Virus record (IMG/VR): IMGVR_UViG_3300013713_000001
Coordinates: 1 to 64,000 of that record
Length of the DNA: 64,000 nucleotides
Source of the DNA: a virus
Lineage: Duplodnaviria; Caudoviricetes
Direction: 5' to 3' (one strand)
Shown here piece by piece: positions 6,201-52,113 of the stretch (the first letter of the stretch is position 1; every line of letters begins with the position of its first letter). Both the position numbers and the translations under genes were made by a program. The notes under the pieces were generated by a model. The model saw only the letters and a program-made list of their open reading frames with translations, was not told the origin of the DNA and did no database searches.

Positions 6201-9200
6201 TGGGATGCCATTACCGGGGCAGTGGTTGACCTCACGAACAACACCATTATCAACGCCAAACGGCTGGCCAACAAACTCTTTACCCGGGACAATAAGGAAG
6301 TGTTCCTCAGGGGCTTAAGCAAGACCCGTGAGTTGCTGGTAAAGGCGTTCAAATGGTTTGATCCCATGGGCCGTATCAAGGGAATGGCGGGCAAGGTCTC
6401 AACCCGTTTCTACCAGATGGACGTGTACGTCGAGGGTGAAGACGAACCTGCCCTCTACGGTAATCGTTTCGCCAAAGGTCATTACTTCATTAAGGATAAT
6501 GAAGGAAACTTTGTTCCGATCAACGGTTGGAACGAGATCACGGGTGCAGTCTACGACAAGAACGGCAGCGTGCTCATTACGGAAGACGAGTACGACCGCG
6601 GCTTGAAGACCTCAATGGGCCTGAGCATTAACAAGCTTGGTAAGGGTGCCCAGACCGCTAAGAAGTGGGGAATCGACCTGTTCAACAAGGCAAAGGATCA
6701 CGCGTTGCCTTATGCGAAGGGGGCTTATGAAAAGGGCAAGGGTCAGTTCAAAGCCGACTACACTCCAATCGTCAACTCGGTAGACCGCATCTACAACCTG
6801 CTGCTTCGGCATTGGGGTTATGATGAGGAGTTCATTCCGATCACTCCTGTTGACGGTCCACCAAAACCGGGTCCTTTCCCAACCCCCAACAGTGACATCA
6901 CGGAGCCGGTTACCCAGGAAGCACTGGATGGGTCGGAGAAAGAGAGCGAAGCAGATCTGATCGCTCGACGTGAGTTGCGTGCTCGTCGTCGTAAGACCAG
7001 TGGTCCGGACTTTGTAGGTCCCCTGCCGTTCCGGACCCCTGATCCTGATGGCAAGCCTGTGGCTAAAGAGGAGAAGTCGGAAACGATCACTCCGCCTGAA
7101 GACGATGGTGTTCCAAAGCCGTGGATCTTTAAGCGGGACTACGATGCCATGGCCCTGCGTTTCCCCCACATGAAGGAACAGGTGGAGTTCTACCGGAAGC
7201 GTTATGAAGACCGTCAAAAGGAGAACCAGGTCGAGAGTGACAGCAAGCCTGCGGATACCAATGACCCTAATCGTTTGAACTCGTTGGCCGACAAGAAGAA
7301 CCAGGCTGAGGAAAAGAAAGATGAGAACGTCAAAGACGCGATTATCTCGATTGCCGAAAACTTTGGTTACGGTCAAAAGAACAACGAAGAGTTGGCAAAG
7401 AAGAAACCGGCAGGGCTGTTTAGTCTGCTCGGTGGTCTGCTCGGCGGGATCACCACCGGGATTGGTAAGCTGACAAGCTTCTTTGGCAGCAAGGTCTTGC
7501 TGAACGGATTGGGGACCCTGTTCAAGTTCAGCACCTTTGGCATTCGTTTGTTGCCAAAAGTGGCTACGGGTATCGGGGCAATGAGCAGCGCGCTCCTCAC
7601 CTTGATCAAGTCGGGCAGCCTGGGTAACGCAGCCAGTGACTTACTGGACGGACTGCGGGGTGGTGAAGGCGGTAACCCAGGTCGTAATGACCGCCGTCGC
7701 CGTCGCCGTCAGCGTAACAGCACCGGGCGTAGTCTCGCAGGTGGGCTTGGTAAAGTAGGACTGGGCTTGGCTGTCAGCACCGGCGCGAATGCCATGATGG
7801 ATTCGGGGATTATTGACAAAGACAGTGGGATGGGGCAGGCCCTGGATTATGCAGGCGACGCTGCCACACTTTGGGGAGGTGCACAGATGGCCCTTGCGGG
7901 TCTGAAGCACTTTGGGATTGGACGGGGGATAGGAGGTAAGCTGGGTGGATTGAAAAATCTAGTCGGCACAGGTCTCCGTTCGTTGCCTAGCCTGCTCCTC
8001 AGTCCCGTTGGGCTGGCAGCAGGGGTTGTAGGGTACCAGGCCTATAAGAGCTGGGGAACCTTGCAGGGGATGATCCCTAAGCAGTACCTGATCCGCATGA
8101 CCCAGTACGGTCTCTCTGACCCTAACGGTGATCTCTCCGACAAACTCTTGCAGATTGAGGAGTTGCTGACCGACTACGTTGTGATTGGTAACGGTAAGGC
8201 AAGCTTGTCCCAACAGGCGCCGATCGAGAAGGTAATCCAAATCCTGTCCGGGAGCATTCCTGACAAGCGCACGATGAGTGATACCCTCTCCTGGTTTAAC
8301 GGTCGCTTCAAGCCGGTGTTCATGACGTACATGGCCTGTCTTGATGTGATCGGAGTCAAGTCGCTAAAGGAATACGACAAACTCAGAGCCGGTAACGTCT
8401 ACAAGGTCGCTAAGCAAACCCACGAAGCGATCACCTTGCTTGTGCCATTCCCTTACACCATCACGGCTAAGTTCGATCCTGAAAACCCGATCCTGGAACG
8501 CGAAGCCACGATCATCCGGGTAAACAACTACCTGGCTGAGTTGAAGACCTACAGCGAAACCGCTGATCGACTGAACGGTGTAGAGCCTGTCACTGCAGTA
8601 GAAACCGTTAAAGGCGTAAGTGCTGAATCGCTGCAACGTGAGCGCGTTCAGCTGGAAGCCCAACTGCGGGATCCGAACACTGAGTGGAAAGGTACTAACC
8701 GTTACCAGGCGAGTGCCCGTCTGAAAGAAGTCGAAGGCGAGATCAACAAGCTTAACGAGGCGTACAAAGCTGGGACCGTGATTGGGGATATCTTTGTCAA
8801 GGACATGCTTCCTGACAACCGCCCCATGGACATGCTGACGGCTATCCGTATTGCGTGCTACGGTAATGATGAAAACATCCCTTGGCGTGTCGAGGCTGTT
8901 CTGAAGCTCGAGCGTCATTGTGAACAGTTCTTTAAGCTGTCTGGCGATACCGTAGAGTTCACTGGTCAGATTGGGGATCTGTTCGCCCAGTTTAAAGATG
9001 CGTTCCGTGTTGATCAGGATTATGCGCAAGCCTGGTGCCTGTGGTTTAAAGACCGGTTCCTGCCGGTACTGACAAACTACATGACCCAGATGAACAAGTA
9101 CCGCAAAGGGCGCCCAGGAGTGGTTTGGAAAACACTCTCGGTCACTGCACGGTATGAGATCGCTAAAGCGCTGGTAGATTCAAAGGTCGAAGTAGCACCG

Positions 9201-11393
9201 GGTCTTATCACAAGTATCTGGTACGTTCGGGCGTCGCCCTTCAAAGGGACAAAGTCGCCTGACCGTTCGGAGAAAGTGGACCGTATGCTGCAGCTCTTGA
9301 GCGAGGCTTCGATTACAGCTCGTTTGAAAGACCCTGAGATGGAAGCCGGTAAGACAAACGCTCAGACCTGGGCCAACGCGATCAGTCCTCACAAGACTGG
9401 CGGAGGGTTCACCCCTCAGTTTGCCAACACCCAGGACGCCTCTACCTTCAAGACCCCAGCAGATGCTTTGCGGGGTGGTCAGTACAGTACCTCAGGTGCA
9501 CCAGCCGGGACGACGTTTGGTCCCAACGGTGTATTCAAGACCCCTGAGAACAAGTTTGGGTTCCAGCCCATGACCGGTGATAGCAGTACGGATCACCTCG
9601 ACATGACTGGCGTCCAGGCACAGCAAGGCAAAGACAGTGGTGTCTCTGTTCCGCCGAAATTGGCTGAGCAGTTGATCATTCGTGAAATGATGAAGCAGGG
9701 CTTTACGGATCCGCGAGCAATCGCTGAGATGTTGGCACTGACGAACTACGAAACGGGTGGTTACAAGAAGACTGTTGAGAACATGAAGTACACTTCTCCT
9801 GAACAGCTGATGAAAGTGTTCAAGGAAGTGCGCTCCATTGATCAAGCCAAGCAACTGATCTCGATGGGTGAGGTGGCGATTGCCAATACCGTGTACGGTG
9901 GTGGTAAGGGCGCTTCCCTTGGTAACAAGGATCCAGGTGACGGTTACCGTTATCGGGGTCGAGGGATGGTGCAGCTTACTGGTAAGGACAACTACGCACG
10001 GTACGGTAAAGAACTTGGGATTGACCTCGTTAACAACCCTGAGCTGTTGAGTAACGACCCTAACGTCATGGCGCAAGTGGCCGTCGCCTTCTTCAAGAAC
10101 TCCAAGCTGTTGAGGGGGATCTCTGAAGACGGTGACTTCGGTAAAGCAGCCGCTGGCTTGAACGGAGGCAACACGCTCCCGGATATGCAGAAGCGGTATG
10201 GCTTGTACATGAGCTATCTGAAGCAGATCCAGGATGGAACCTTGGGTGCGGATGATAAGTTCTTGACCGAGAACTCGGGCAGTCAGACCCCTAGCCAGAT
10301 GTACGGAGGGACGTCGCCGTCAAACATGCAGACTCCACCGAACTACAATTCGGGTAGCATGCCAAGCGGTGGGATTCCAACGGGTGGTGGGACTGGCGGT
10401 GGTGGCGGTGCGTATTCTGGAGCCCCGGTTGATACAACGGGCGGGTTCGCTAACTACGGAACTCCAGGAAACTACACGAACACCGGTGCGGGCAGCGGCT
10501 TGATTCTTAAGTCGGAAGAAACTACCGGGGGTGGCGCTCATCATCCTGGTCTCGAGGCGCTGTGCAAGATTATCCAGGCAAGGATCCCTGGGTTCAATCG
10601 CTTCACTGCACTAAACGATCGGTACCACGTCCGGATGGGGTCTAAAGGACTGCACCCTAAAGGACTGGCTGCAGATTTCACCTTGACCATGGGTGCGCAG
10701 GGTAGTCAACGTGCAACCGCAATGGTGATCGAGATCATGCGGGGCGCTGGGCTGTCGCCTTCGGAGTATTCGGTGATTAACGAGTACGTAACGAAGACGG
10801 CCATTGGGACCGGGGGTCACATCCACGCTGGGTTTAAAACACCTGGGGCTGCAGAGAAGTTCTTGCAAGCCAGTGGCGGTGCTCAGGCAAACGGAGAAGA
10901 TACAACCGCAGGTTCTGGTGGATTGGTACAACCTACACCACAACCGCAAACTCCAGATGCCAGTGGTCCTGATGCAGGGGCGACTCCAGCACAACCGGCG
11001 CCAATACCAAGAACCATGCCAGCTCCTCCTCCTCCACCGGTCGGCGCGCCTCAGGCTCCAGATGGGGTGGGTGAACCGGATGACGAGTTCCTCGGCAAAC
11101 CTAACTTCACGCAACTCCCTCTACCAAAAGAACCACCTGCGCCACGGACTCAACCGCTTCCAGAGGGTTACGAGGCCAACAAGCGTCGGATGGCTCAAGA
11201 GGCTAGCCAAGGTGACAACAGCGCGCTTAACGACGTGTTGCTTGGCTTGAAAGAGATGATGGGTAAGAATGCCGATAAAGACGAGAAGATTACTCAGTTG
11301 CTGGCTTTGCTGGTGAAGGAAGCACAGACGGGTAATGAGATCGCCAAGAACTCGGGAAGTGACAGGGGAGACAATCTTGTTTCCATGCGTTAG
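3288..11393 (+). CDS. Giant tail-associated lytic / tape-measure-like protein (phiKZ gp181-like) with C-terminal GH19 and M15-like peptidase domains
   Basis: 2701 aa, divergent from the vRNAP genes as in phiKZ. Repeated D(L/V)Y.EG.D.P...W..ITGAV.D units. GH19 motifs NYETGG and GDGYRYRGRGMVQLTGKDNY. M15-like LHPKGLAADF...GGHIHAG. Pro-rich tail. Confidence 0.9.
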   Translation: MAEDVDFDWGDDPFAGDIDFDSDFDKAEKHGFIRSFATGFLSGIVEKTVGDTDARIDTLKMVLPKTWTRAFNTFDQLNRRRRELTRELQGEIHGSMDDLQYLAKRAGERLQKSFPNKIGEGLIEFSKNDYSSWENTGGTLGETQPGMETVEEGEVNEVLDQAGINSLQERETAVQVGTEITGMMAEVGGRTIGGLNVINQQLSRSNVLLEGILDYQRKVQARNDAMRLTLAARSYLTDSKYYKFQEVANHRIIRELKQIALNSAKSDYEKTTHSQAVRKSIRESVFNTVKGQFGGIADYFSERFGKSARGEAVSSVGDIAGSLRMALEMTDGMEFNLGSMMGNAAAGMFISSLPRLLRSGKAKEALEKLKKRFPDAAKKAEDAYIRLEDLGNVTSYATANFEGMANTLADFNRGSFDYDEDMTYEDYLDQFTGQGEPMGKTEWTLKRFARNTLNKGTGAVLDDMYASTATQYNLQRRTLKDNFEIQPWTRRSDRTLNEAIPALLGAIELSLEKIRTGDDTLQARSYDYVRGKLIDHRQKVADAFNRTFEQNSFRNYADMALRTAKQLDPNKELTERAQKALAMEMADQADKKKGFSPYNYMELSHLDPNDAAEIRGLMQRNFGITDELFNEFKEGDHAQREMKLNYLPTEAARELAAKVIDEAIRLGNFAPELAENIDVSQNSGYFDIMREWGMVKSEYGREQLDTDKVKELFRQFIDDPEKRITRAAPEKEPYRRTRSFGNPFPTPSPDTAPIGPKPTPGETGPDVTDKFEETLNALRTSIEEVAVNTRTTMLDGKSSNTGSYIDKLGERVDQSNTRLDTLITLATDRNATLLKLLEARGAPAESKLTEEEANDLKAEKLSILDRLKQTSFKDIFNKGMETIVKHEPLVLGGLLGGLAGLAVYNPKAAAIAGGGFAAAMAYGKLRSLALARSAEDDQDLYEEGSDDPILEAWKLRRKDYADAATGKVIDTWDAITGAVVDLTNNTIINAKRLANKLFTRDNKEVFLRGLSKTRELLVKAFKWFDPMGRIKGMAGKVSTRFYQMDVYVEGEDEPALYGNRFAKGHYFIKDNEGNFVPINGWNEITGAVYDKNGSVLITEDEYDRGLKTSMGLSINKLGKGAQTAKKWGIDLFNKAKDHALPYAKGAYEKGKGQFKADYTPIVNSVDRIYNLLLRHWGYDEEFIPITPVDGPPKPGPFPTPNSDITEPVTQEALDGSEKESEADLIARRELRARRRKTSGPDFVGPLPFRTPDPDGKPVAKEEKSETITPPEDDGVPKPWIFKRDYDAMALRFPHMKEQVEFYRKRYEDRQKENQVESDSKPADTNDPNRLNSLADKKNQAEEKKDENVKDAIISIAENFGYGQKNNEELAKKKPAGLFSLLGGLLGGITTGIGKLTSFFGSKVLLNGLGTLFKFSTFGIRLLPKVATGIGAMSSALLTLIKSGSLGNAASDLLDGLRGGEGGNPGRNDRRRRRRQRNSTGRSLAGGLGKVGLGLAVSTGANAMMDSGIIDKDSGMGQALDYAGDAATLWGGAQMALAGLKHFGIGRGIGGKLGGLKNLVGTGLRSLPSLLLSPVGLAAGVVGYQAYKSWGTLQGMIPKQYLIRMTQYGLSDPNGDLSDKLLQIEELLTDYVVIGNGKASLSQQAPIEKVIQILSGSIPDKRTMSDTLSWFNGRFKPVFMTYMACLDVIGVKSLKEYDKLRAGNVYKVAKQTHEAITLLVPFPYTITAKFDPENPILEREATIIRVNNYLAELKTYSETADRLNGVEPVTAVETVKGVSAESLQRERVQLEAQLRDPNTEWKGTNRYQASARLKEVEGEINKLNEAYKAGTVIGDIFVKDMLPDNRPMDMLTAIRIACYGNDENIPWRVEAVLKLERHCEQFFKLSGDTVEFTGQIGDLFAQFKDAFRVDQDYAQAWCLWFKDRFLPVLTNYMTQMNKYRKGRPGVVWKTLSVTARYEIAKALVDSKVEVAPGLITSIWYVRASPFKGTKSPDRSEKVDRMLQLLSEASITARLKDPEMEAGKTNAQTWANAISPHKTGGGFTPQFANTQDASTFKTPADALRGGQYSTSGAPAGTTFGPNGVFKTPENKFGFQPMTGDSSTDHLDMTGVQAQQGKDSGVSVPPKLAEQLIIREMMKQGFTDPRAIAEMLALTNYETGGYKKTVENMKYTSPEQLMKVFKEVRSIDQAKQLISMGEVAIANTVYGGGKGASLGNKDPGDGYRYRGRGMVQLTGKDNYARYGKELGIDLVNNPELLSNDPNVMAQVAVAFFKNSKLLRGISEDGDFGKAAAGLNGGNTLPDMQKRYGLYMSYLKQIQDGTLGADDKFLTENSGSQTPSQMYGGTSPSNMQTPPNYNSGSMPSGGIPTGGGTGGGGGAYSGAPVDTTGGFANYGTPGNYTNTGAGSGLILKSEETTGGGAHHPGLEALCKIIQARIPGFNRFTALNDRYHVRMGSKGLHPKGLAADFTLTMGAQGSQRATAMVIEIMRGAGLSPSEYSVINEYVTKTAIGTGGHIHAGFKTPGAAEKFLQASGGAQANGEDTTAGSGGLVQPTPQPQTPDASGPDAGATPAQPAPIPRTMPAPPPPPVGAPQAPDGVGEPDDEFLGKPNFTQLPLPKEPPAPRTQPLPEGYEANKRRMAQEASQGDNSALNDVLLGLKEMMGKNADKDEKITQLLALLVKEAQTGNEIAKNSGSDRGDNLVSMR

Positions 11394-35456: not shown

Positions 35457-38400
35457 ATGGCTATCACAGACGATGCAGTAAAGCCTGGTGATTTGCCGGC
35501 TATTAAAGAACAACCGATTTGGGAAGAACACCTACCTGCGCTTATTTCTGGCGTAAAGGTACAAGGTAAAAGTGATGGTTCCGGGGCGTCTAACTTCCAG
35601 GCCCGTGTTCTGGACAAACGTACCCGCTGGTTGAAAGAAGTAGTCGAAGGCTTGGCGTTGGGCGGTATTATCCTCTTGGGGTATCTGCCTGATGAAGACG
35701 CGCTGAACGAAGTAGAAACAGACAAACTCCAGGTCGGTACTGCTTACTTTGTTGACTTTGCCCTGCGGGTCTGGAACGGACAACAGTGGGCAACCTCTGG
35801 GTCCCTTCGTGGCGAACGCGGTCTTAACCTGCTGGGTGTATGGCCTGAGAAAGTTTCCCTTCCTGAAGTGGAAGAGAACGAGATCGGTGACGCCTACATC
35901 TGGAACCATGACTTCTGGGTGTTGGTTCCAAACCCGCTCCGCTGGGAACCGATGGGTATTCGAGGTCCGGAGGGTAAGTCCGCCTATGAGGTCTGGGAGA
36001 GCCAACCTGCCAACGCGGGTAAGAGTGAAACGCAGTACCTGAAGTCACTCATCGCCAAAGACAACTACCAGATCGCCGTTGAGGAAGGGTTCAAGGGTAC
36101 CCGTAGTGAGTGGGTCGATTCCCTGCGCGCCAAGAACAACTATGAACTGTGGTTGCAGGCAGGTAATAAAGGCAGTCTTGAAGATTACCTGGTTACTTTG
36201 AAGTCCACGGTTCCTGGTCCCAAGGGCGACAACATCAAAGGTGACCCAGGAGATAATGGCAAAGACGGACGTAACCTCTACATCAAGGGAACCGTCCCGA
36301 CCCGTGGGTGGCTCGAGGGGTTACCGACAAAGGAAGACCAGGACGCCTACATCACGGCTGACGATAACCACCTGTGGATGTACTTGGTTCCCGGTGGCTT
36401 TACCGACCTTGGTCCCTTCAGGGGTAGTGATGGTAAAGATGGTAAGAATGGCCGGAACATCGTTCTGCTGGGTGCAGTGGAAGCTATTGCTAACTTGCCA
36501 AAGGGCCCTGTCGACCAGGACTGCTATGCGGTAACAGCGGTCAATGCGGTCTACATGTTTATCTCCAGCCAAGGCTGGACGAACCTGGGGACCTTCAAAG
36601 GCCGGGACGGTACCAATGGGACCAACGGCACCAATGGCACTAACGGGAAGAATGGGACTAACGGTCTTAACATCGTGCTTACTGGCGCGGTTGATAAGTT
36701 CAGTGAGCTTCCGGTCACCCCAGCTGAGCAAGACGTCTACGCCGTTCGTGAAGAGAACCGTCTGTATGGACGTATCAATTCCGTCTGGGTTCACCTTGGG
36801 ACCTTTAAGGGAGAAAAGGGTGATACCGGGGATAAGGGCGAAGACGGAAAGAGTATCAAAGGGGATAAAGGTGAGGATGGTAAGGACGGTCGCAACATCA
36901 TCGTCAAGAACGTCTTGCCAAGTGCTAGTGATCTCCCCGCCACGGCTAACCAGGAGCAGGATTGCTACGCGGTCAATGACACGAACGAAGTGTTCATGTG
37001 GATCGATGCAAAATGGAAAAGTCTCGGCAAGTTTAAAGGACGTGACGGTACTAACGGGGTCAACATTGTTGTAAAGGGTTCGGTAGCCTCATTCGCTGCC
37101 CTTCCTTCTGGTCCTGCGGAGCAGGACGTTTATTCTGTTCAGGATGAAAACGCGCTTTACGCCTTTGTTTCGGGAGCATGGTTAAACCTCGGTACCTTTA
37201 AAGGTAAAGACGGTAGAAACGGCACTGATGGTAAGAACGGTAAAGATGGTGCCAATGGCAAGTCCACTGACATCATCAAAGTCCTTACTGAAGAAGACCA
37301 GACCCCTCCCCCGCTTGATAGCACTACTCTTGGAAAGTCCTACTTGGACTTGAACAACATCGTCTGGATCAACTTGGACCTGAAATGGCAAAAGGTTGGT
37401 CCGTTTAACGGTGAGAAAGGTGACATTGGTCCGGCGGGTCCACCGATGAAGATCCGTGGTACTGTGCCTACTCTAGCGGACCTGCCTGCATTGGAGGACA
37501 CTGAGGAAGGCGACCTCTGGTACACCGCGGACACCAAACTGGCTTACGGTGTTGTTGACGGTAACTGGACTGATGCGATTGACATGATTGGCCCAGAAGG
37601 TAAGCAAGGCCTGGAGGGTCTACCAGGTGCGTTGATGCCGATCCTTGGCCTCTACGATACCTTGCCTGCGTTGATCGCCGATCGCCCCACGGGTTCTAAA
37701 GGGGATGCTTACCTTGTCGTCACCGGTCAAGACAGCCGTAACCTGATCGTCTGGAACACGAACACCAATAGCTGGCAGGACACCGGTCCGGCAGGCTTGC
37801 CAGGTCCACGCGGTCCAGCTGGTAAGGACTCTGTGGTTCCAGGTCCACGTGGTGAGAAGGGAAGTCAATGGCTGATCCTTCCTGCTGACCAGGACGAACC
37901 TTCCGACACGTTTAACGGGCGCACAGGTGACTGGGCGGTTACGAAGAACATGCGGGTCTGGTACAAGACTGCAGAGGGTTGGATCTTCTGGAACTGGATC
38001 GTGGCAGGTGACGTTAACTCACCTTTGAAAGGAGAAGGGATCGTTGCGCGTTATGGGGCTGAATGGGTTCCCCTACCCGTTGACGAGGTAAAGGAGGCTG
38101 TTGCCGGTAAGGTCTACGGTCGTCGTCTGAAAACAGGTGACGATGAAGTGACAGAATGGGTAGAGATTGAATTCCCTGATGTCATGACCAAAGACGGGAA
38201 GCCGTACGCCCGTGTTTGGTTGACCGATGGTGATGCACCCGTCTGGCAGGAGATTCAGTTCCCTAAGGGTATTGAAGATCTGAAGACCAAAGACGGCAAA
38301 CAACATGCACGGGTTTGGGAAGCTGACGGAACAGCACCCGTCTGGAAAGAGATCGTTTTCCCTAAAGGGATTACTGACCTCCTTACCAAGGACGACAACA

Positions 38401-38933
38401 AGCAGTTTGTTCGTGTCTTCAAGAACGGATCAGACACCCCAATCTGGCAAGAGCTGAAACTGCCTGAAGCGGGCATTGCGGACGTTAAGAACCCGGAAGC
38501 CGGTGCGGTATACCTGCGGGATCCAGGAAACAACACGTGGGTTAAATACCTCAAGTCCGCCAGCGATGGTCGTCAGTACCTTCAAAAGGACGGGAGTTGG
38601 ATCCGGTTTGACCGTTACGACCTTGCCATCAAGACGGTTACTGCGAGCTACCAGATTGACCCTGAGGTCGATCAGATCGTTGCAGTGACGAACACTACCA
38701 GCACGGCAAAGGTGATCTCCATCAAGGATTTCCTCTCTGACCGCGCGACAACAGTGATCGTCAGAATCAAGGGGACTACCGGGGCGATCTCGTATGGCGG
38801 AACAAACATTCGCTGGGATACCCGTTTGAATGGTGGTAGTCCGCCTGATTTGAGCACCTACCGAACCTCGCTTGTGTTCTTCTGGGACGGTGAAGTGTGG
38901 ACCGGTAACGTGAGTTCGACCACTAACCAATAA
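35457..38933 (+). CDS. Tail fibre 1 (collagen-like linkers plus repeated ~55-aa modules)
   Basis: 1158 aa; N-terminal GASNFQARVLDKRTRWLKE; GKSAYEVW repeats; Gly-X-Y runs; repeated G...LP...QD.Y.V.....W..LG.FKG; C-terminal FFWDGEVW. Confidence 0.85.
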   Translation: MAITDDAVKPGDLPAIKEQPIWEEHLPALISGVKVQGKSDGSGASNFQARVLDKRTRWLKEVVEGLALGGIILLGYLPDEDALNEVETDKLQVGTAYFVDFALRVWNGQQWATSGSLRGERGLNLLGVWPEKVSLPEVEENEIGDAYIWNHDFWVLVPNPLRWEPMGIRGPEGKSAYEVWESQPANAGKSETQYLKSLIAKDNYQIAVEEGFKGTRSEWVDSLRAKNNYELWLQAGNKGSLEDYLVTLKSTVPGPKGDNIKGDPGDNGKDGRNLYIKGTVPTRGWLEGLPTKEDQDAYITADDNHLWMYLVPGGFTDLGPFRGSDGKDGKNGRNIVLLGAVEAIANLPKGPVDQDCYAVTAVNAVYMFISSQGWTNLGTFKGRDGTNGTNGTNGTNGKNGTNGLNIVLTGAVDKFSELPVTPAEQDVYAVREENRLYGRINSVWVHLGTFKGEKGDTGDKGEDGKSIKGDKGEDGKDGRNIIVKNVLPSASDLPATANQEQDCYAVNDTNEVFMWIDAKWKSLGKFKGRDGTNGVNIVVKGSVASFAALPSGPAEQDVYSVQDENALYAFVSGAWLNLGTFKGKDGRNGTDGKNGKDGANGKSTDIIKVLTEEDQTPPPLDSTTLGKSYLDLNNIVWINLDLKWQKVGPFNGEKGDIGPAGPPMKIRGTVPTLADLPALEDTEEGDLWYTADTKLAYGVVDGNWTDAIDMIGPEGKQGLEGLPGALMPILGLYDTLPALIADRPTGSKGDAYLVVTGQDSRNLIVWNTNTNSWQDTGPAGLPGPRGPAGKDSVVPGPRGEKGSQWLILPADQDEPSDTFNGRTGDWAVTKNMRVWYKTAEGWIFWNWIVAGDVNSPLKGEGIVARYGAEWVPLPVDEVKEAVAGKVYGRRLKTGDDEVTEWVEIEFPDVMTKDGKPYARVWLTDGDAPVWQEIQFPKGIEDLKTKDGKQHARVWEADGTAPVWKEIVFPKGITDLLTKDDNKQFVRVFKNGSDTPIWQELKLPEAGIADVKNPEAGAVYLRDPGNNTWVKYLKSASDGRQYLQKDGSWIRFDRYDLAIKTVTASYQIDPEVDQIVAVTNTTSTAKVISIKDFLSDRATTVIVRIKGTTGAISYGGTNIRWDTRLNGGSPPDLSTYRTSLVFFWDGEVWTGNVSSTTNQ
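36609..36665 (+). repeat. 9-bp-period tandem repeat encoding GTNGTNGTNGTNGKNGTNG
   Basis: GGTACCAATGGGACCAACGGCACCAATGGCACTAACGGGAAGAATGGGACTAACGGT. Confidence 0.8.
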
Positions 38934-43028: not shown

Positions 43029-45980
43029 ATGGCTATTACTGATGATTCTGTTAAACCAGGTGACCTTCCTGGTATTGTTGAAGAAGCCGAATGGGAGGAA
43101 CACCTCCCCGCTCTGGTGACCGGCGTTAAGGTTCAGGGTAAACGCGATGGCACAGGGGCTTCCAACTTCCAGGCTCGGGTATTCGATAAGCGTACCCGTT
43201 GGCTGAAAGAGTTGTTCGAAAACTTCCAGCGTATCAACGGCACTGGGGTTATCCTCAAAGGGGTGCTCTACACCGAACAGGCGCTGGCCGCGATTCCAAC
43301 CGATGATCTCCTGATCGGGACCGCTTACTTCCTCAATTTCGAACTGAGGATGTGGAACGGTAAGGAGTGGGCGTCCTCGGGTTCCTTGCGTGGCGACCGG
43401 GGTATCAACATCCTTGGTGTCTGGCCGGATGAGGTAGAGCTCCCCGACTATAAACAACGTCAGATGGGCGATGCCTACATCTACAAGCACGACATCTGGG
43501 TACTTGTTCCTGACTTCGATTACTATGACACCAACCCTGACCCCAATGCCCCGCCGGTCTGGGAAGAACTGGGGATTCGCGGTCCAGCAGGGGCATCGAC
43601 CTACGAAACTTGGAAAGAACAGCCGGGTAATAAGGATAAGGGCATTGATGCATTCCTTAGTGCCCAGAAAGGGGAGAAGGGTGACGATGGTTTCGAGACC
43701 TGGAAAAAGATCCCAGGTAACGCAAAGAAAACCATTGAGGATTGGGCCGAAGCAATGCGCGGCAAGCAGGGGATCCAGGGTGACCCTCGTGCCCCGTTCA
43801 CTGTAGCCGGGTCCAAGGAAACGATTACCCAGTTACCCTTCCCAGGTGATGAAAAGAAGGCCTACTACGTTGGCATTGATCTCTACGTTTGGGTAGAAGG
43901 CATTCAGGACTACTTCGTGGTACCCGGCCTTAAAGGGATGAGCGCTTACGAAGACTGGTTGGCATCCGACCCTGAGCATGCTGGCTTGAGTGTTGATGTG
44001 TTCCTTAACTCACTTATCTCCCAGGTCCCCGGACCACGAGGCTTTAAGGGCGAAGATGGTAAGGACGGTCGCAACCTGCGAGTGAAGGGAACTGTTAGCA
44101 ATGCTGGTAATCTCCGGGAAATCCTGAAGCCGGAGGACCAAGACGGTTACGTGGCATCCGATACCGGTCGCCTGTGGATGTGGCTACCGAACGACCCTGA
44201 GCCTGGTTGGGTAGACCTCGGGCCTTACCGCGGGGTTGATGGTCTGGACTCCTACCAGGTCTGGAAGAAGAACGTCAATCCTGAAGGGACCATGGGTGAA
44301 TACCTGGCGTCCATCAAGGGTAAAGACGGGATCAACATGAAAGTTAACGGGATCGTTGATACCCTCAACGACCTTCCGATTAACGCTCAAGAGCAGATGT
44401 TGTACGCTGTTATTGAGGAACACTCGTTCTACATGTACCTGGACGGCGCCTGGGCCAACATTGGCAACTACGGGATGGATGGCAAAGACGGTATCGACGG
44501 GAAATCCCTCGACATCATCAAGGTCTTTACCGAAGCTGACCAAGTCATTCCTCCTGCCGATGCCAGTACCAAGGGTAAGGCCTATGTCTCCCTTAACCCT
44601 CGCGATGTCTACGTCAACGTCAGCGGGTACAACTGGATCAACGCAGGTCCCTTCATGCCTGAGGGCAAGCAGGGGATCCAGGGCGTGGCGTTCCGTCCGA
44701 AGGGTACGGTCACCTCGTTGCAAGAACTTCCAAGGATTGGCGGGAAGGATGGGGCTCAAGAAGGTGACAGCTACTCGGTCATCTCCGAAGCCAAGAAGAT
44801 GTGGACAGTTATCGAGGGGCGGTGGGAAGGTCCTATCGATATCGTTGGTCCCCAAGGTGATCAAGGCATCCAGGGTATCCCGGGTGCACTGATGCCGATC
44901 AAGGGCGTCTACAAGAGCATGCCCCTGTTGCGTGCCGCTAAGCCGACTGGGTCACTCGGTGATGCTTACATGATCATCGACCTTGACGCCAAGCCTGACC
45001 CTATCCGTAACCTGGCCATCTGGTCTGAAGAAGGCAATGACTGGGTCGACACGGGACCTGCAGGGGTTAAGGGTGAACGGGGTCCAGCGGGTCCAGCCTC
45101 TACGATCCCAGGTCCTATCGGTAGCCAGTGGCTGATCCTCGACACCCAGGATGCCCCTTCCAACGTCTTCAACGGCCGTGAGGGGGATTGGGCAGTTAAC
45201 CGGTTGATGCGAGTGTACTACCGTACTGCTACGAGCTGGGCATACTGGGGAACACTGGTCGCAGGTGACGTTAACTCGCCGCTGCAGTCTGAAGGTAAGG
45301 TGGTTCGTTACGGTGACGTCTGGGTCCCTCTTCCTGTTGACGAAGTAAAGAACGCAGAGCAAGGTAAATTCTACGGTCGGACGATAGTAGGGCAAACTGA
45401 AAGTGGGGGTAACGTTCTCGATTGGTCGGAAATCAAGACCATCGAGGACCTCAAGACCAAGGATGATGTCAAACAGTTCGTTCGGGTCTTCAAGAAGGAC
45501 TCGTCGGTTCCCGTCTGGGCTGAACTGGATGGTATGCAGGACCCCTTGAACCCAAAGGACGGTGCCTACTACCTGCGTTTCAGTAAGAACAAATCGTGGG
45601 TCGAGTTTAAAGTAGCGCCATCTGACGACAAGTTGTACATGTCGAAAAATGGTGACTGGGTAGCCTTTGACCGCTACGACGTTCTCATGAAGAAGATCAC
45701 TACCACGTACCAGATCGACCCGTTGGTCGAGCAGTTCGTAAAACTCGACAACACTGCTGCAACAGCTAAGACCATCAGTCTCAAAGCGGGTCCTAAAGAC
45801 CGCGGAATGGTTGTTGTACTGGTCGTTGTTGGTATCACGGGTGGTCTTCTCTACGACAGCACAAACATCAAGTGGGACCTTAACACCATCCCCTCGTTGA
45901 GCGGAACTCGCAACGTCATCTCCTTTGTGTGGGACGGCGAGTTCTGGCTCGGTGCGAAAGGGGCAAACCCAACTACTTAA
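43029..45980 (+). CDS. Tail fibre 2 (paralog of fibre 1)
   Basis: 983 aa; the same MAITDD.VKPGDLP...WEEHLPAL N-terminus, VAGDVNSPL, FDRYD and FVWDGEFW. Confidence 0.85.
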   Translation: MAITDDSVKPGDLPGIVEEAEWEEHLPALVTGVKVQGKRDGTGASNFQARVFDKRTRWLKELFENFQRINGTGVILKGVLYTEQALAAIPTDDLLIGTAYFLNFELRMWNGKEWASSGSLRGDRGINILGVWPDEVELPDYKQRQMGDAYIYKHDIWVLVPDFDYYDTNPDPNAPPVWEELGIRGPAGASTYETWKEQPGNKDKGIDAFLSAQKGEKGDDGFETWKKIPGNAKKTIEDWAEAMRGKQGIQGDPRAPFTVAGSKETITQLPFPGDEKKAYYVGIDLYVWVEGIQDYFVVPGLKGMSAYEDWLASDPEHAGLSVDVFLNSLISQVPGPRGFKGEDGKDGRNLRVKGTVSNAGNLREILKPEDQDGYVASDTGRLWMWLPNDPEPGWVDLGPYRGVDGLDSYQVWKKNVNPEGTMGEYLASIKGKDGINMKVNGIVDTLNDLPINAQEQMLYAVIEEHSFYMYLDGAWANIGNYGMDGKDGIDGKSLDIIKVFTEADQVIPPADASTKGKAYVSLNPRDVYVNVSGYNWINAGPFMPEGKQGIQGVAFRPKGTVTSLQELPRIGGKDGAQEGDSYSVISEAKKMWTVIEGRWEGPIDIVGPQGDQGIQGIPGALMPIKGVYKSMPLLRAAKPTGSLGDAYMIIDLDAKPDPIRNLAIWSEEGNDWVDTGPAGVKGERGPAGPASTIPGPIGSQWLILDTQDAPSNVFNGREGDWAVNRLMRVYYRTATSWAYWGTLVAGDVNSPLQSEGKVVRYGDVWVPLPVDEVKNAEQGKFYGRTIVGQTESGGNVLDWSEIKTIEDLKTKDDVKQFVRVFKKDSSVPVWAELDGMQDPLNPKDGAYYLRFSKNKSWVEFKVAPSDDKLYMSKNGDWVAFDRYDVLMKKITTTYQIDPLVEQFVKLDNTAATAKTISLKAGPKDRGMVVVLVVVGITGGLLYDSTNIKWDLNTIPSLSGTRNVISFVWDGEFWLGAKGANPTT

Positions 45981-46727: not shown

Positions 46728-49700
46728 ATGCTCGAAGCAATCAATATCGCCTCTGCAAAGGCTCAAGACGATCGTGAGTTGCCCTTTCCGAAAGGGACTC
46801 CTTATAAGGGCATCGTTCCTGCGAAGGGCTTTTTGACCGGTACTCAGTTGGCCTCCATGATTGGCCTGACCGACGGTACCGCAATTAACGACGATGCTGG
46901 CTGGCTGCACTACATTGAAGATTCTGGGCTTGAGCTGTATATCGCTAAAAAGCCCCTCCGGATAAACACCACGTGGGAACTTATCAACACGGCCCAGGGT
47001 GGTAACAAGAAGGTTGTAGAAGTAAACGGTGAACGTTATGTGGTCCGGTTCATCGCAGGTAACGCCGGTGCCTACGACTACGCGTGGGATCGGTACATTC
47101 TCGGCGTGTACAACAGTGCTGACCGAACAGGGTTCCCAGCCGGAGTTCCTTACTGGGGTGACTACACTGCCTCCATGCTCGGGGTAGCGGTCACGAATGA
47201 ATTGTCGGATGGCTCTCACACCATTTGTGCTGAGCCGGATACGAGTCGGGGCGGTTACGTCTGCCGGGGTAACGGGGGGAGTGCTGCTGTTCGCGGGGTT
47301 ACGGCTAACTGGTATCTTCCAGCCAACACCCGTTACAAGCACTACGGTTGGCGTCCAATGCTTGTAAAGGAATCTACCATTCCGTCGATCCCCTTTAAAG
47401 GTGAGGTAGAACAAAAGGACTTCATCACTGACATTGAACTCGCAGCGCAGCTGGGTGTAACGGGCGGTAGCCGGATCAACGCAGGTGTTCAGTGGCTCCA
47501 CTTTGTGTTCGATAAGGGACCGGAACTCTATGTCGCTAAAAAGTCGATGCGGAGTAACCTGACCTGGGAGTTTTACAATAACCTGGGACTGGCTCTTGGT
47601 AAGCGGCTTATCCAAATTGGGGATCGATACTTTAAAGTACGGTTCATCCTGGGGGCGGACAAGGAGCCTGCTAACGCCACGCTTGGACGAGAGTGGATGC
47701 AGCTTTTCCCGCCCCTTACTAATGGAACTTGGGCAAACTACCTTTACAGTGATCTTGGCGTAGGGACCGGTACCAGCAATGGTGAACTGGCCATGTTCCA
47801 AGAGATCTCCATGAGGTCGGATAAGGCCCACGCTGCGGGACCCTATTCAGGAACCTCGAACCTCTGGTACCAACCGGCAGGGGCTACCAACGGTGGATAC
47901 GGCTGGCGTCCGGTACTGGAGCTCGTAAAGGATCTTCCGGTCTATCCAGATTCCGGTCCTGGTCCTAAAGTGTTGATGTCTGGGACTGAAGACCTGGGTT
48001 ACTTCGGACAGGTCACTGCCACTGAGTTGTTTGGCGCAAAGGACTTCTTGACGAGGGCTGCCATTGCGGGAACTACTCTTGTAGCAAGCGCTAACACCCA
48101 GGTCTACACCTGGCTGAAGTTCTTCTTCAAGAGGAAAGTCATCTATATTGCGAAGATTCCGTTTGCCTCTGGGCTCACCTGGGAGAACGCATATAAGGCG
48201 GGCTTGGTGTACGGTGAGCGCGGAACCGGACTCTTCCCGGTCGCTGGATCCCCTACTGATCAGTACCGGCCCATGACAAAACAAGATAATGGGAAAACCT
48301 GTTACCTTGTTCCCCGCCTTATCCATGGACTTGCCATGGACAACTATGCCTCGAAAGATGACGACCAATACGCAGGAAGTGAATGGACTGAGCTGCTGGG
48401 CCGAACGGTTATCGAAGCGAACCGACCAATCACCGAGAAGTGGGATAACTTCTTTATGGTGGATATTGGGTCCGGTGGATCAGAGTATACCCTTGGGCTG
48501 GAAACGAATAGAAATAACCTCAATACTGCGGTTTACATGACCGACCCCAACAGTGTTGTAAACCGGTTCACCCACCGTGACAGTGTGTCAAAAACACAAA
48601 ACAACCTCTACTACCGCCCAGTGCTTGAACTTGTTGACCTCGCTGCAGCCAGATCCATCCCTGGACTTGAAAAGGTCATGGACATGCCAGTAGCGCTGTC
48701 GAACCTTGCGGCGGGCGCGTCTGGGGTTAGTCTATGGACGTATGGCGGACAGGGTGTTTCGGCCCTTAGTGGCGACAGGTACCGTTTTGACCTCGAGAAG
48801 TATACAAGTATTAAGGGGACTTACGGCGTATACGGATGGGGAGGTAGCTGCTGGCTATCCGGCCTATGGATGCTGGGAGGGACCGACGGGACCTACAAGA
48901 ACACCCTTTACAAACTCGACACCAGTTCAGGGTCTCGATCGGCCACAGGGAAAGCGCTTCCTGGACCTGTGCGGGGTCAAGTAGCAATGGCAACGATTGA
49001 TAACTACAACTTCCACGCGGTAGGAGGGATCGACACCACAACTGGTAAAACAACCGCGTTGCACTACCGTTATCGGATTGTTCTTGATTACTGGACCCAG
49101 TTGGCAGATCTCCCGCAGCCAATGACCGGGCATTCGGCAGGTTGCTACAATGGCAAGTTCTACGTGGGGGGTGGCTGGAATGAGACTGCCGGTAACCTTG
49201 CTGAGATCTACGAGTACACCCCATCAACCAACAGCTGGGCTGAGATCACCAAGTGTCCGGCAAAGACTGCATGGGTTGGCGGCGGGATCTTCAAGAACTT
49301 CTTTGTGCTTGGCGCAAACGAGAACGGTCGTTTGGTTCTCCATGTCTACGATATCGATGCCCAGAAGTGGGGACGTGTCTACACGACGGCACCGGCCCGG
49401 TGGGGTGCGATGTTTGCACCAGAGACAGCGTCGATGCTTATTGTCGGGGGTTGCGCTAACGGCAACGTAGGGACTGACGAGTACCTTGCAGCGCCTCGCT
49501 TCACGGATATCCTCCGGTTCAGCACACTGGATATCCCAGTAGAAGAACTTGGCCCAAGGATGGTAAACGCGGAGCGTGACGGGGTGTTTAACTACATTCC
49601 TGAAACCGATCGAGACCTTGTTACCGGCACCGTGATTTCCACGCTTGCTGGTGGGGCCATAAAGGATACCACACGGCTTATCGACGGGAAGCCCTCCCTT

Positions 49701-50768
49701 CGCTTGGCTAACGGCGCCTCAGAAGTATCACTTAAGCCTGCCGGCGGTATCTCACTTGATGATTACCTTGAGTGGACGCTTGAGTGGACAAGTCTTCCAG
49801 AGACTATCGCAAATGGCAGCTTCAAGAACGAACTGATGATCCGGGGCAGTTCAATGCTCATGGGGACTCGTTGGACCAATACTGCGCTTGGTGACTGCCT
49901 GCAAATTTCCTTTGCAAACTTTGATGCACTTGATTCCTGGAGGGTTCCATTAGTCAAAACTGATGCTGTTGGGAAGGTGCTGAAACACGCACTTGTGTTC
50001 AAGAACAACCGTATCAGCTACTTCCTTAACGGGACGAAACAAACCTTGCAAAACCGTTCTCCAGGAGACAGCAACGCAATCTCTCGGGACTATATCGAAA
50101 AAGTAAGTCCCTTTGGAAAAGTGACCAACTTCTCCTTGGGCTACTTTAGCGATACCTATACCTCCTACACCGGTAACTTCGGGGCGGTACGGTTTGTTCC
50201 AGTAGCCTTGTACTCCAAAGACTACGTCGCACCGGGCATTTATGAACGTGGGTTGGTAACTGATGACGGTAAGTTTTACAAACGTGCGCACCCTGTCTTT
50301 ACCGGTAATGTGACCGATGGGTATCAGGCGACGGCAACATCTGCGTATGACAACGATATCTATGCAGGATTCCGGGCTCTTGACTTTAAGCCACAAAATA
50401 CTGATTCTGTCGTTGTTAATAACCATCCGAGGTCAGTGTGGCTTGCAAGTTCGCCGGCGCTACCTCAGATGCTATCCCTGAGTATGCCAGAAGCTAAGCG
50501 CATCACGGGTCTTGTGCTGCGAGCTTACACGACCCCAGCCATTGGTGGCGGTGTAGTACAGTTTGACATCGAGACTTCGGTGGACGGAGTCACCTGGACA
50601 AAGGTTTACAGCAGTCCAGCACGGTCTAACACCAGTGTGGCTGATGACATTTACAGGGACGTGTTTGATGTAACCACGCGTTATATCCGTATGAAAGTAA
50701 ACACAACACAAGGATCGGCGTACAACGCTAGTGTGTTTGACATGTTCTTCCTTGAAAGAGGAGTGTAA
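46728..50768 (+). CDS. Multidomain virion protein: three gp131-like domains, a Kelch propeller, a LamG-like domain and an F5/8 (discoidin)-like domain
   Basis: Three units ending in (W/Y)RP(M/V)L; Kelch blades (YGG, LGG..G, VGG...Y...W..LADLP.P..GHSA...NGKFYVGGG); KHALVFKNNRISYFLNG; C-terminal ATATS.Y..AFRA.D..W...F.IETSVDG.TWT...RYIRM. Confidence 0.8.
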   Translation: MLEAINIASAKAQDDRELPFPKGTPYKGIVPAKGFLTGTQLASMIGLTDGTAINDDAGWLHYIEDSGLELYIAKKPLRINTTWELINTAQGGNKKVVEVNGERYVVRFIAGNAGAYDYAWDRYILGVYNSADRTGFPAGVPYWGDYTASMLGVAVTNELSDGSHTICAEPDTSRGGYVCRGNGGSAAVRGVTANWYLPANTRYKHYGWRPMLVKESTIPSIPFKGEVEQKDFITDIELAAQLGVTGGSRINAGVQWLHFVFDKGPELYVAKKSMRSNLTWEFYNNLGLALGKRLIQIGDRYFKVRFILGADKEPANATLGREWMQLFPPLTNGTWANYLYSDLGVGTGTSNGELAMFQEISMRSDKAHAAGPYSGTSNLWYQPAGATNGGYGWRPVLELVKDLPVYPDSGPGPKVLMSGTEDLGYFGQVTATELFGAKDFLTRAAIAGTTLVASANTQVYTWLKFFFKRKVIYIAKIPFASGLTWENAYKAGLVYGERGTGLFPVAGSPTDQYRPMTKQDNGKTCYLVPRLIHGLAMDNYASKDDDQYAGSEWTELLGRTVIEANRPITEKWDNFFMVDIGSGGSEYTLGLETNRNNLNTAVYMTDPNSVVNRFTHRDSVSKTQNNLYYRPVLELVDLAAARSIPGLEKVMDMPVALSNLAAGASGVSLWTYGGQGVSALSGDRYRFDLEKYTSIKGTYGVYGWGGSCWLSGLWMLGGTDGTYKNTLYKLDTSSGSRSATGKALPGPVRGQVAMATIDNYNFHAVGGIDTTTGKTTALHYRYRIVLDYWTQLADLPQPMTGHSAGCYNGKFYVGGGWNETAGNLAEIYEYTPSTNSWAEITKCPAKTAWVGGGIFKNFFVLGANENGRLVLHVYDIDAQKWGRVYTTAPARWGAMFAPETASMLIVGGCANGNVGTDEYLAAPRFTDILRFSTLDIPVEELGPRMVNAERDGVFNYIPETDRDLVTGTVISTLAGGAIKDTTRLIDGKPSLRLANGASEVSLKPAGGISLDDYLEWTLEWTSLPETIANGSFKNELMIRGSSMLMGTRWTNTALGDCLQISFANFDALDSWRVPLVKTDAVGKVLKHALVFKNNRISYFLNGTKQTLQNRSPGDSNAISRDYIEKVSPFGKVTNFSLGYFSDTYTSYTGNFGAVRFVPVALYSKDYVAPGIYERGLVTDDGKFYKRAHPVFTGNVTDGYQATATSAYDNDIYAGFRALDFKPQNTDSVVVNNHPRSVWLASSPALPQMLSLSMPEAKRITGLVLRAYTTPAIGGGVVQFDIETSVDGVTWTKVYSSPARSNTSVADDIYRDVFDVTTRYIRMKVNTTQGSAYNASVFDMFFLERGV

Positions 50769-50893
50769 CTAACTAAGCTGTGCTCGGCGGGGACCTTCCG
50801 CCGGGCCGCTTAACACCTGGACTCCAAAAGAGAAAGCAGGAGGTTACTGAAACAAAGGCCTATTACTAAATTTCGATTTGAGGATGGACTCCT

Positions 50894-51268
50894 ATGGATA
50901 AACCTATCGACCCGTTTGATTTCAACAAACCCCCCTTCATGAGCTTGATGCTACCCCTTACGGAGCCAGGGGTAAACGGACCATTGCAAGTGGTTCACGA
51001 GCGTTTGAATATCCTGAAAAACATGATTCACGGGGGAGTAGGTCCTTCTCTCCATTTTATTGGGACACTGCCTAATCGAAATGCCTTAGACGGTATCGAT
51101 ACCACCTCCCTTCCAGAGAACAGTGCTTACTTTGTAGGTCCTGCTATCGCGGTATGGAACAAAGAGGAATGGGTTGTGTCCGACTCCCTTCAGGGACCCC
51201 CCGGGGATGGCGCTAGTGATGGTGATGATTCTGACTTGCTTCTTATCTATCAAACAGCCAAAGGGTAA
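50894..51268 (+). CDS. Mini-fibre/adaptor: fibre-type N-terminal module plus a C-terminal DxDLxxxYxxAK motif
   Basis: 124 aa; NGPLQVVHERLNILK and GTLP...AL..I.T..L...SAYFV...VWN..EW..S.SL.G match the N-termini of both fibres; ends DSDLLLIYQTAKG. Confidence 0.75.
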   Translation: MDKPIDPFDFNKPPFMSLMLPLTEPGVNGPLQVVHERLNILKNMIHGGVGPSLHFIGTLPNRNALDGIDTTSLPENSAYFVGPAIAVWNKEEWVVSDSLQGPPGDGASDGDDSDLLLIYQTAKG

Positions 51269-51274
51269 CACATC

Positions 51275-51862
51275 ATGTCTTCTGCCAATCTGATCCTGCT
51301 TGCTGGTGCCATCGGTGCCGACGTCAAACTGCTGCGCCAGGTCCAAGGTGATCTGACCAAGCTCCCCACCACCGCCAAAGACAACCTGGTCAATGCGCTC
51401 ATCGAGCTGCACGCCCTGGCCAGCGCTCCGAAAGGCGCCCAGATCGATGACACCGCTACCAACGGCGACGTCGATGTCACCTGGTCCGCCGACAAGATCT
51501 TCGACTCCATCGCTCAGGCCATCGTCACCGCCAAAAGCGAAACCAAGAACGAACTGCTCGACGGCGCCGGCGCGGCCTACGACACCTTCAAGGAACTCCA
51601 GGACCTCCTGGTTGGCCAAGAAGATGCCGTCTCCGCTCTGACCACCGCTGTCGGCAACCGCGTTCGCTTCGACCAGGCGCAAGTCCTGACCGACGAGCAG
51701 AAAGGCATCGCGCGTTCGAACATCGGTGCGGCCAGCACTCAGGACGTTACCAACGTCACTGCTCAGATCACCACCGTGAGCGACAACCTCGCTGCCCTGG
51801 TCGACTCCCTGGGTGACGTCGACGCCGACCTGGTCGCTGCCTACAACGCTGCCAAGGCGTAA
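51275..51862 (+). CDS. Short trimeric fibre-like protein, probably high copy
   Basis: 195 aa; fibre motifs GDLT.LPTTAK.NLV.AL.EL, TWSA.KI, LLDGA..AYDT.KEL and AQ.LT..QK..AR.NIGA; strongly C-ending codons. Confidence 0.8.
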   Translation: MSSANLILLAGAIGADVKLLRQVQGDLTKLPTTAKDNLVNALIELHALASAPKGAQIDDTATNGDVDVTWSADKIFDSIAQAIVTAKSETKNELLDGAGAAYDTFKELQDLLVGQEDAVSALTTAVGNRVRFDQAQVLTDEQKGIARSNIGAASTQDVTNVTAQITTVSDNLAALVDSLGDVDADLVAAYNAAKA

Positions 51863-51865
51863 TAG

Positions 51866-52042
51866 GTGAGCTCGAGCGCCAGAGCAGTTGCACTGGCTGA
51901 GGCCGTAGGGGTGGATATCAAAGACCTCACTGCGCAACTGCAGGCGAGCAACCAGCAAATCACCGATCTTCAAGACGCCCTGGTCCAGGCAAACGCCAAG
52001 ATCAAGGAACTGACGGAACGATTGGACGCAATGACCAACTAG
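51866..52042 (+). CDS. 58-aa coiled-coil protein sharing its N-terminal motif with the upstream gene (missed by the ORF track)
   Basis: GTG after TAA TAG: MSSSARAVALAEAVGVDIKDLTAQLQASNQQITDLQDALVQANAKIKELTERLDAMTN; AAGG upstream. Confidence 0.7.
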   Translation: MSSSARAVALAEAVGVDIKDLTAQLQASNQQITDLQDALVQANAKIKELTERLDAMTN

Positions 52043-52070: not shown

Positions 52071-52113
52071 TAGCTAACCCTACCCAGCCTTTCAGGGCTG
52101 GGTAGGGTTATGT
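52071..52113. terminator. Bidirectional hairpin; near-identical to 30514
   Basis: TAGCTAACCCTACCCAGCC-TTTCAG-GGCTGGGTAGGGTTATGT, preceded by A9. Confidence 0.85.

What the first reader, a model, noticed from the sequence alone, without database searches (positions are those of the whole stretch)
50894..52042. Candidate anchor / repeating subunit / cap system for a chain-assembled virion fibre
Seen in the sequence: three adjacent small genes share terminal motifs in a nested pattern. A (50894-51268) starts with the same attachment-plus-first-repeat module as the two long fibres (N...QV...R...LK, then G.LP...AL......L....AYFV...VWN...W..S.SL.G) and ends DSDLLLIYQTAKG. B (51275-51862) starts LILLAGAIGADVKLL, consists of trimeric fibre motifs, and ends DADLVAAYNAAKA. 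C (51866-52042, unannotated) starts VALAEAVGVDIKDL and is then a plain coiled coil with no C-terminal motif. So A has only the C-motif (DxDLxxxYxxAKx), B has both motifs, and C has only the N-motif (LAxAhGxDhKxL). B also has very strongly C-ending codons compared with its neighbours, as expected for an abundant protein. Inference: the two motifs are complementary docking ends; A anchors at a fibre site, B polymerises head to tail, and C caps the chain, so filament length would depend on the B:C ratio and not on gene length. I know of no description of this assembly logic for these motifs.
Basis: partly seen in the sequence, partly recalled or inferred. Interest (0 to 1): 0.9.

Follow-up and report, generated by a model that had tools for sequence, protein, structure and literature searches.

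The report
Self-stacking phage whisker fibre cassette
Three small genes of this jumbo phage belong to a widespread, unannotated cassette whose proteins probably plug end to end (anchor, many copies of an extender, tip) to build a long thin whisker on the virus particle; this building principle is known from one unrelated cyanophage fibre but not for this protein family, which also supplies candidate genes for the unexplained whiskers of phage PMBT3.

Summary
Observation confirmed. A, B and C are real genes of an EL-like jumbo phage. The C-only / both / N-only motif order recurs in unrelated phages and prophages: 62/68 upstream genes end in the C-motif, 67/69 downstream genes start with the N-motif, 0/69 downstream genes carry a C-motif. 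A model docks B's C-terminal trimer on B's N-terminal trimer in parallel register (0.93, best control 0.03), and the Tyr/Asp versus Phe/Glu motif subtypes match across A, B and C. B has capsid-level codon bias. Phage PMBT3 carries the cassette and shows 154-nm collar whiskers of unknown gene; its relative Lana lacks it and none are described. Corrections: the anchor-repeat-tip logic is already shown for cyanophage A-1(L) gp82-81-80, an unrelated beta-rich family; elsewhere C usually bears a variable tip domain and a collar gene precedes A; length set by the B:C ratio is unsupported. Polymerisation is inferred, not shown. The scan had not noted this family on other DNA; it noted a similar logic in another family. 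New variant of a known kind.

The parts
50894..51268 (+). Gene A, anchor: fibre-type N-terminal helix and small beta domain, short collagen-like linker, C-terminal docking helix
50975..51205 (+). Part of A (residues 28-104) homologous to the N-terminal module of the two long fibres and of EL gp156
51227..51265 (+). C-motif of A (socket helix); its last codons also form the likely ribosome-binding site of B
51275..51862 (+). Gene B, extender: elongated, mostly helical trimeric fibre unit with both docking ends; strong codon bias
51275..51337 (+). N-motif of B (residues 1-21), plug coiled coil in the complex model
51806..51859 (+). C-motif of B (residues 178-195), sleeve helices around the next plug; invariant Tyr190 and Ala193
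51866..52042 (+). Gene C, terminal unit: N-motif (about 51866-51928) plus short coiled coil, no C-motif, GTG start
50775..50811 (+). G+C hairpin between the upstream structural gene and A (-22.8 kcal/mol); possible terminator
52075..52110 (.). Perfect 16-bp hairpin after C (-31.1 kcal/mol), between convergent genes; probable terminator closing the cassette
35457..38933 (+). Long collagen-repeat tail fibre 1, shares the N-terminal module with A (context, not part of the cassette)
43029..45980 (+). Long collagen-repeat tail fibre 2, shares the N-terminal module with A (context)

Best explanation
A, B and C build a long, thin accessory fibre (whisker) on the virion by end-to-end docking of trimers. 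The N-terminal three-helix coiled coil of one trimer is the plug; the three short C-terminal helices of the trimer before it wrap around the plug in parallel as a six-helix sleeve centred on Tyr190 and Ala193. A has only a socket and fixes the chain to the particle: in most phages through an LtfC/p132-like collar protein encoded just upstream, in this EL-like clade through a borrowed tail-fibre attachment module (site unknown). B has plug and socket and repeats several times. C has only a plug and ends the chain; elsewhere it usually carries a variable distal domain, probably for binding, and here it is reduced to a bare coiled coil. Shown here: genes, motifs, conserved order, subtype matching, codon bias. 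Modelled: the B-B joint. Inferred: A-B and B-C joints (by motif homology), repeat number above one, virion location, adhesion or search role. How length is set is open.
For: Order conserved in sipho-, myo-, T4-like and jumbo phages of Pseudomonas, Caulobacter, Sinorhizobium, Rhizobium and Gordonia and in prophages: 62/68 upstream C-motif, 67/69 downstream N-motif, 0/69 downstream C-motif at a 1% genome threshold; looser recount with the Phe subtype 75/87 upstream, null 8/1307. Complex model B140-195 x3 with B1-52 x3: 0.93 in three runs, best of 3 controls 0.03, contacts agree 100%, partner pLDDT at least 94; the mark was reached by 58 of 80 solved complexes and 2 of 110 mismatched pairs, counts that hold only roughly for this job; interface 178-195 on 1-21, parallel (186 with 6-10, 190 with 9-14, 193 with 10-18). 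Top covarying pairs 16-190, 16-194, 6-186, 12-194, 12-190; A and B C-motif subtypes agree in 79/79 loci, B and C N-motif subtypes in 75/76; within-locus plug identity 0.56 versus 0.48 between loci, 0/2000 shuffles. B ranks second in C-ending codons among 168 genes and exceeds C in 56/66 and A in 54/77 loci. A's N-terminal part is swapped among several unrelated anchors while the C-motif stays. A collar-like gene precedes A in 44/68 loci and is homologous to A1002 collar gp33 and T5 p132. The same slot behind that collar gene holds an A-1(L) gp81-family gene in KPP25. PMBT3 has the cassette and up to three 154 +/- 13 nm whiskers from a collar with thickened tips and no identified gene (PMC8421299); one copy each of A, B and C gives at most about 114 nm; Lana lacks B and the collar gene and no whiskers are described (PMC7368026).
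Against: No experiment on any family member was found; no proteome or image of this uncultured phage. The two modelled fragments came from one protein and one alignment, so the model cannot by itself separate inter- from intra-trimer pairing. The subtype covariation may reflect few events (well-supported branches force only one change). PMBT3 versus Lana is one pair, and they differ in other tail genes; silence about whiskers in Lana is not a measured absence. Lambda-like Ralstonia/Betaproteobacteria prophages keep B and C between terminase and gpW with no C-motif anchor in 40-60 kb scanned and no collar homologue. Part of the C-motif conservation (terminal Ala-Lys codons) may serve the ribosome-binding site of the next gene. 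No collar homologue in this genome.
Confidence: 0.74

Rival explanations
1. Fixed three-segment fibre: the joints are real but each fibre holds one A, one B and one C trimer, like T4 gp34-gp37 or two-part side fibres; B does not self-polymerise.
For: In most phages A's socket differs from B's (Tyr-Ile-Leu versus Tyr-Asn-Ala type), which could encode order. B-core-plus-tip fusions exist (L041, L083).
Against: B's own socket and plug dock in the model; B and C plugs are as alike as B plugs are to each other; in this clade A's socket is B-like; B alone has high-expression codon bias; single copies cannot reach 154 nm in PMBT3.
Confidence: 0.14
2. The motifs pair inside one B trimer (closed or hairpin state) or act as a folding/chaperone contact, and A and C are truncated paralogues or assembly helpers and not chain members.
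For: The modelled pieces are two ends of the same protein; the monomer model has low global confidence (pTM 0.39).
Against: The parallel register fits a linear joint, not a fold-back; A and C share nothing with B beyond the motifs yet keep matched subtypes; C carries 34 different distal domains among 69 proteins.
Confidence: 0.06
3. The nested motifs are leftovers of partial gene duplication plus translation-coupling signals, without a protein-docking role.
For: Terminal Ala-Lys codons give an AAGG at ribosome-binding distance from the next start, and a 3-base gap is the commonest spacing (32/69).
Against: Asp16, Tyr190 and Ala193 are invariant in 117 sequences; the N-motif cannot be a ribosome-binding signal; the pattern persists across phages of Proteobacteria and Actinobacteria.
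Confidence: 0.03

Closest known systems
Anabaena myophage A-1(L) neck fibre gp82-gp81-gp80 (Yu et al. 2024, PMC10966104)
   Same: Three adjacent genes apart from the main structural block; trimeric anchor on a collar, repeated middle trimer joined head to tail (about 14), one larger terminal trimer; middle gene most highly expressed in relatives (bioRxiv 10.64898/2026.02.14.705889).
   Different: No sequence homology (hhalign probability 0.2%; hmmsearch none). gp81 is a globular beta bead joined by N-terminal beta-hairpins; B is an elongated helical rod joined by a modelled six-helix sleeve.
Pseudomonas podophage A1002 / KPP25 collar gp33 and chain-like fibre; GP4 and VP1 chain fibres (PMC13730344)
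   Same: Collar protein is homologous to the gene that precedes A in most cassettes; fibre made of many small subunits.
   Different: Dimers threaded on a rope protein that fixes their number; subunits unrelated to B; this window's phage has no collar homologue.
Mycobacteriophage Bxb1 collar fibre gp4 (PDB 9d93), phage 80alpha upper fibre gp68 (6v8i), T5 p132/LtfC collar with L-shaped fibre
   Same: B's central helix-turn-helix fibre motif matches gp4 (E 5e-6) and weakly gp68; LtfC-like collar gene in Gordonia and other cassettes.
   Different: These are single-gene fibres; the match covers about 50 central residues and neither docking motif.
Unassigned whiskers of Pseudomonas phage PMBT3 (PMC8421299)
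   Same: PMBT3 carries collar-A-B-C (AUM59631-AUM59634) with 47% identity in B.
   Different: A siphophage with a collar-type anchor and a 495-aa tip; the link between genes and whiskers is my inference.

Membership tests
A-1(L)-type bead-chain neck fibre | Middle subunit homologous to gp81 (phrog_4368) | tested here: not met
   B is phrog_4757
A-1(L)-type bead-chain neck fibre | Three adjacent genes in anchor, repeat, tip order with nested docking parts | tested here: met
A-1(L)-type bead-chain neck fibre | Middle trimer joins head to tail in many copies | tested here: inconclusive
   model supports the B-B joint and codon bias fits high copy; stoichiometry not measurable here
A-1(L)-type bead-chain neck fibre | Anchor bound to a neck collar ring | tested here: inconclusive
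   collar-like gene beside A in 44/68 other loci; no homologue detected in this genome
Rope-templated chain fibres (A1002, GP4, VP1) | gp40/gp41/gp80-like beta dimers on a rope protein | tested here: not met
   B profile finds nothing in KPP25; B is helical
Trimeric phage fibre proteins (Bxb1 gp4, 80alpha FibU, phi29 head-fibre-like motifs) | Shared helix-turn-helix fibre motif | tested here: met
   (9d93, E 5e-6)
Trimeric phage fibre proteins (Bxb1 gp4, 80alpha FibU, phi29 head-fibre-like motifs) | Whole-fold match to a solved structure | tested here: inconclusive
   monomer model of a trimeric rod
Virion structural protein | Present in purified particles | not testable with these tools

The most novel reading that the evidence does not exclude
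A portable helical plug-and-socket pair of about 20 plus 15 residues defines a large, unrecognised family of polymeric phage whiskers, swapped between unrelated phages and grafted onto different anchors and tips, with two orthogonal subtypes (Tyr/Asp and Phe/Glu) and a length control that is neither a tape measure nor random capping; it explains the orphan whiskers of PMBT3 and lets a jumbo phage grow a long filament from under 400 codons.
Probability: 0.5. Interest if true: 0.85.

Novelty: new variant of a known kind. Interest (0 to 1): 0.72.

Why it matters
Phage fibres are normally one long gene or a fixed series of parts; a polymeric fibre has been shown in only one family. This adds a second, unrelated and much more widespread family (432 representatives at E up to 1e-30) that is annotated almost everywhere as hypothetical. 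It names testable genes for the unexplained PMBT3 whiskers, predicts whiskers on cultured phages (SM1, phiM12, CcrBL9, Gordonia cluster DJ), and raises a clean question: how a homopolymer reaches a narrow length. The short docking pair could also serve as a modular connector for trimeric proteins.

Tried and rejected
Pfam gave nothing for A or B and only coiled-coil noise for C. PDB sequence search with B alone, with the A-family alignment and with the fibre N-terminus found nothing. Fold searches with the B monomer model gave no clear PDB match (Foldseek; VIA best Z 4.4, long helices) and only family members in BFVD; these do not show a new fold. A's model matched the collagen XVIII trimerisation domain weakly (E 0.18), a lead only; the Atlas gave collagen-fibre neighbours below 0.9. 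The idea that B builds the phiCbK head filament was dropped: phiCbK has no B. Homology to A-1(L) gp80-82 rejected. PMBT3's 1,018-aa extra tail gene is a glycoside-hydrolase-18 multidomain protein, an unlikely whisker. The double stop between B and C is not conserved in relatives. No sigma-70 promoter on the coding strand. The tree of B cores was too poorly resolved to count subtype switches. Ten literature searches found no description of this family, but subscription journals are not covered.

Full report
Source. The window is the first 64 kb of a 229-kb virus record. A conserved structural protein is 63% identical to that of Pseudomonas phage EL, so this is an EL-like jumbo phage. The three genes sit at the end of a fibre-rich block, between a hairpin at 50775-50811 and a perfect 16-bp hairpin at 52075-52110. 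EL itself lacks the cassette.

Observation. Position-specific profiles from 117 B homologues put B and C at the top of 1,307 genome ORFs for the N-motif and B and A at the top for the C-motif, well clear of the rest. A residues 28-104 match the N-terminal module of both long fibres and of EL gp156. B has the second highest share of C-ending codons of 168 genes, in the same range as the genome's most biased genes. C is conserved in related jumbo phages as a 61-62 aa GTG gene.

The pattern elsewhere. B homologues occur in cultured phages of Pseudomonas (PMBT3, SM1, Cygsa01), Caulobacter, Sinorhizobium (phiM12), Rhizobium, Gordonia and Microbacterium, and in many prophages; the profile finds 432 cluster representatives at E up to 1e-30. 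Of 81 distinct B genes with both motifs, 62 of 68 upstream neighbours end in the C-motif, 67 of 69 downstream neighbours start with the N-motif, and none of those 69 ends in a C-motif. The part of A in front of the motif varies among unrelated anchors, and the part of C behind the motif falls into 34 clusters among 69 proteins of 55-773 aa. So the motifs behave as portable ends. In 44 of 68 loci a beta-sandwich gene precedes A. It is LtfC/p132-like; its best PDB match begins with the same sequence as KPP25 ORF087, and a 197-aa protein of the related phage A1002 is a 15-fold neck collar (PMC13730344). This genome has no such gene; its A uses the tail-fibre module instead.

Do the motifs bind? 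One complex job folded three copies of B140-195 with three of B1-52. Score 0.93 in all three runs, best of three controls 0.03, contacts agreeing 100%, partner pLDDT at least 94; the mark was reached by 58 of 80 solved complexes and 2 of 110 mismatched pairs, counts that hold only roughly here. The interface is exactly the two motifs (178-195 on 1-21) and the register is parallel, as a straight end-to-end joint needs. No solved structure of either motif was found, so recall from a known complex is unlikely, but both pieces come from one protein and one alignment, and the model supports binding without showing it. Independently, the strongest covarying pairs between the motifs are 16-190, 16-194, 6-186, 12-194 and 12-190; 6-186 and 12-190 are among the model's best contacts. 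Two subtypes exist, Asp16/Tyr190/Lys194 and Glu16/Phe190/Leu194, and they match across genes: A with B in 79 of 79 loci, C with B in 75 of 76. This may rest on few evolutionary events.

Does B repeat? Three indirect lines say yes. B's own socket accepts B's own plug. B is more codon-biased than C in 56 of 66 loci and than A in 54 of 77, and one jumbo relative has a terminator-like hairpin between B and C (L018). PMBT3, which carries collar-A-B-C, shows up to three flexible 154 +/- 13 nm whiskers from a collar, with cylindrical distal ends, and its authors could not find the gene (PMC8421299). One copy each of its A, B and C spans at most about 114 nm even as pure coiled coil; roughly 4-6 B units would be needed (my arithmetic). 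Its relative Lana lacks the cassette at the same position and no whiskers are described (PMC7368026). This is one pair with other tail differences, so it is suggestive only.

What does not fit. The length spread in PMBT3 (CV 0.09) is far below random capping (about 0.55) or Poisson growth (about 0.25), so the claim that the B:C ratio sets length is unsupported, unless only intact whiskers were measured. Lambda-like Ralstonia-type prophages hold B and C between terminase and gpW with no detectable anchor. The terminal Ala-Lys codons probably double as the next gene's ribosome-binding site.

Comparison with what is known. The anchor-repeat-tip logic is established for the A-1(L) neck fibre: gp82, about 14 gp81 trimers joined head to tail, and gp80 (PMC10966104). 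Those proteins are not homologous to A, B or C. A gp81-family gene follows the same collar gene in KPP25, where the related A1002 fibre is threaded on a rope protein. B shares only a central fibre motif with Bxb1 collar fibre gp4. So it works like the A-1(L) fibre but is not a member of that family. I found no paper on this family in ten searches; subscription journals are not covered.

Verdict. Real, conserved and probably a polymeric whisker built with a helical plug-and-socket joint: docking about 0.9, repetition of B about 0.75. New variant of a known kind; interest 0.72.

Noticed in passing
L316:4581-5618 (Pseudomonas phage MD8; collar gene also in F10, LESphi2/3, JBD68): Behind the same collar gene lies a different nested trio: 63 aa and about 190 aa proteins ending in a shared Trp-x-Gly-x-x-x-Trp motif, and the 190 aa and 93 aa proteins sharing an N-terminal motif (phrog_7946 and phrog_7980 cross-match). 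Looks like a third, unrelated anchor-repeat-tip family.
   Followed up: partly
L313:5600-6794 (KPP25 ORF086-085): ORF085 falls in the same PHROG as A-1(L) gp81, yet the paper on the related phage A1002 models its 171-aa fibre protein as dimers on a rope while A-1(L) gp81 was modelled as self-joining trimers; the two readings deserve comparison.
   Followed up: partly
L009, L161, L185, L205, L223: Lambda-like Ralstonia/Betaproteobacteria prophages keep B and C between terminase and gpW with no anchor or collar gene found; the L185 element seems to lack a normal tail block.
   Followed up: partly
L041, L083, L084:4983-6368: B core fused to a long tip (455-461 aa) in P2-like prophages, after the lysis genes, with neither a free B nor an anchor next to it.
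   Followed up: no
L018:4487-4544; L117:5528-6165; L131:4932-5477: In other jumbo phages a terminator-like hairpin or a 600-bp gap separates B from C, and one has B with no flanking partner.
   Followed up: no
window 46728-50768: 1,346-aa virion protein joining repeated phiKZ-like structural domains, a Kelch propeller and an F5/8 type C domain; EL has shorter separate genes at this position.
   Followed up: no
window 3288-11393: 2,701-aa tail protein with a glycoside hydrolase 19 domain near residue 2200.
   Followed up: no
L003:5067-6903 (Caulobacter phage CcrBL9): The cassette sits right after the capsid genes and a GP4 gp80-like fibre gene; phiCbK lacks it.
   Followed up: partly
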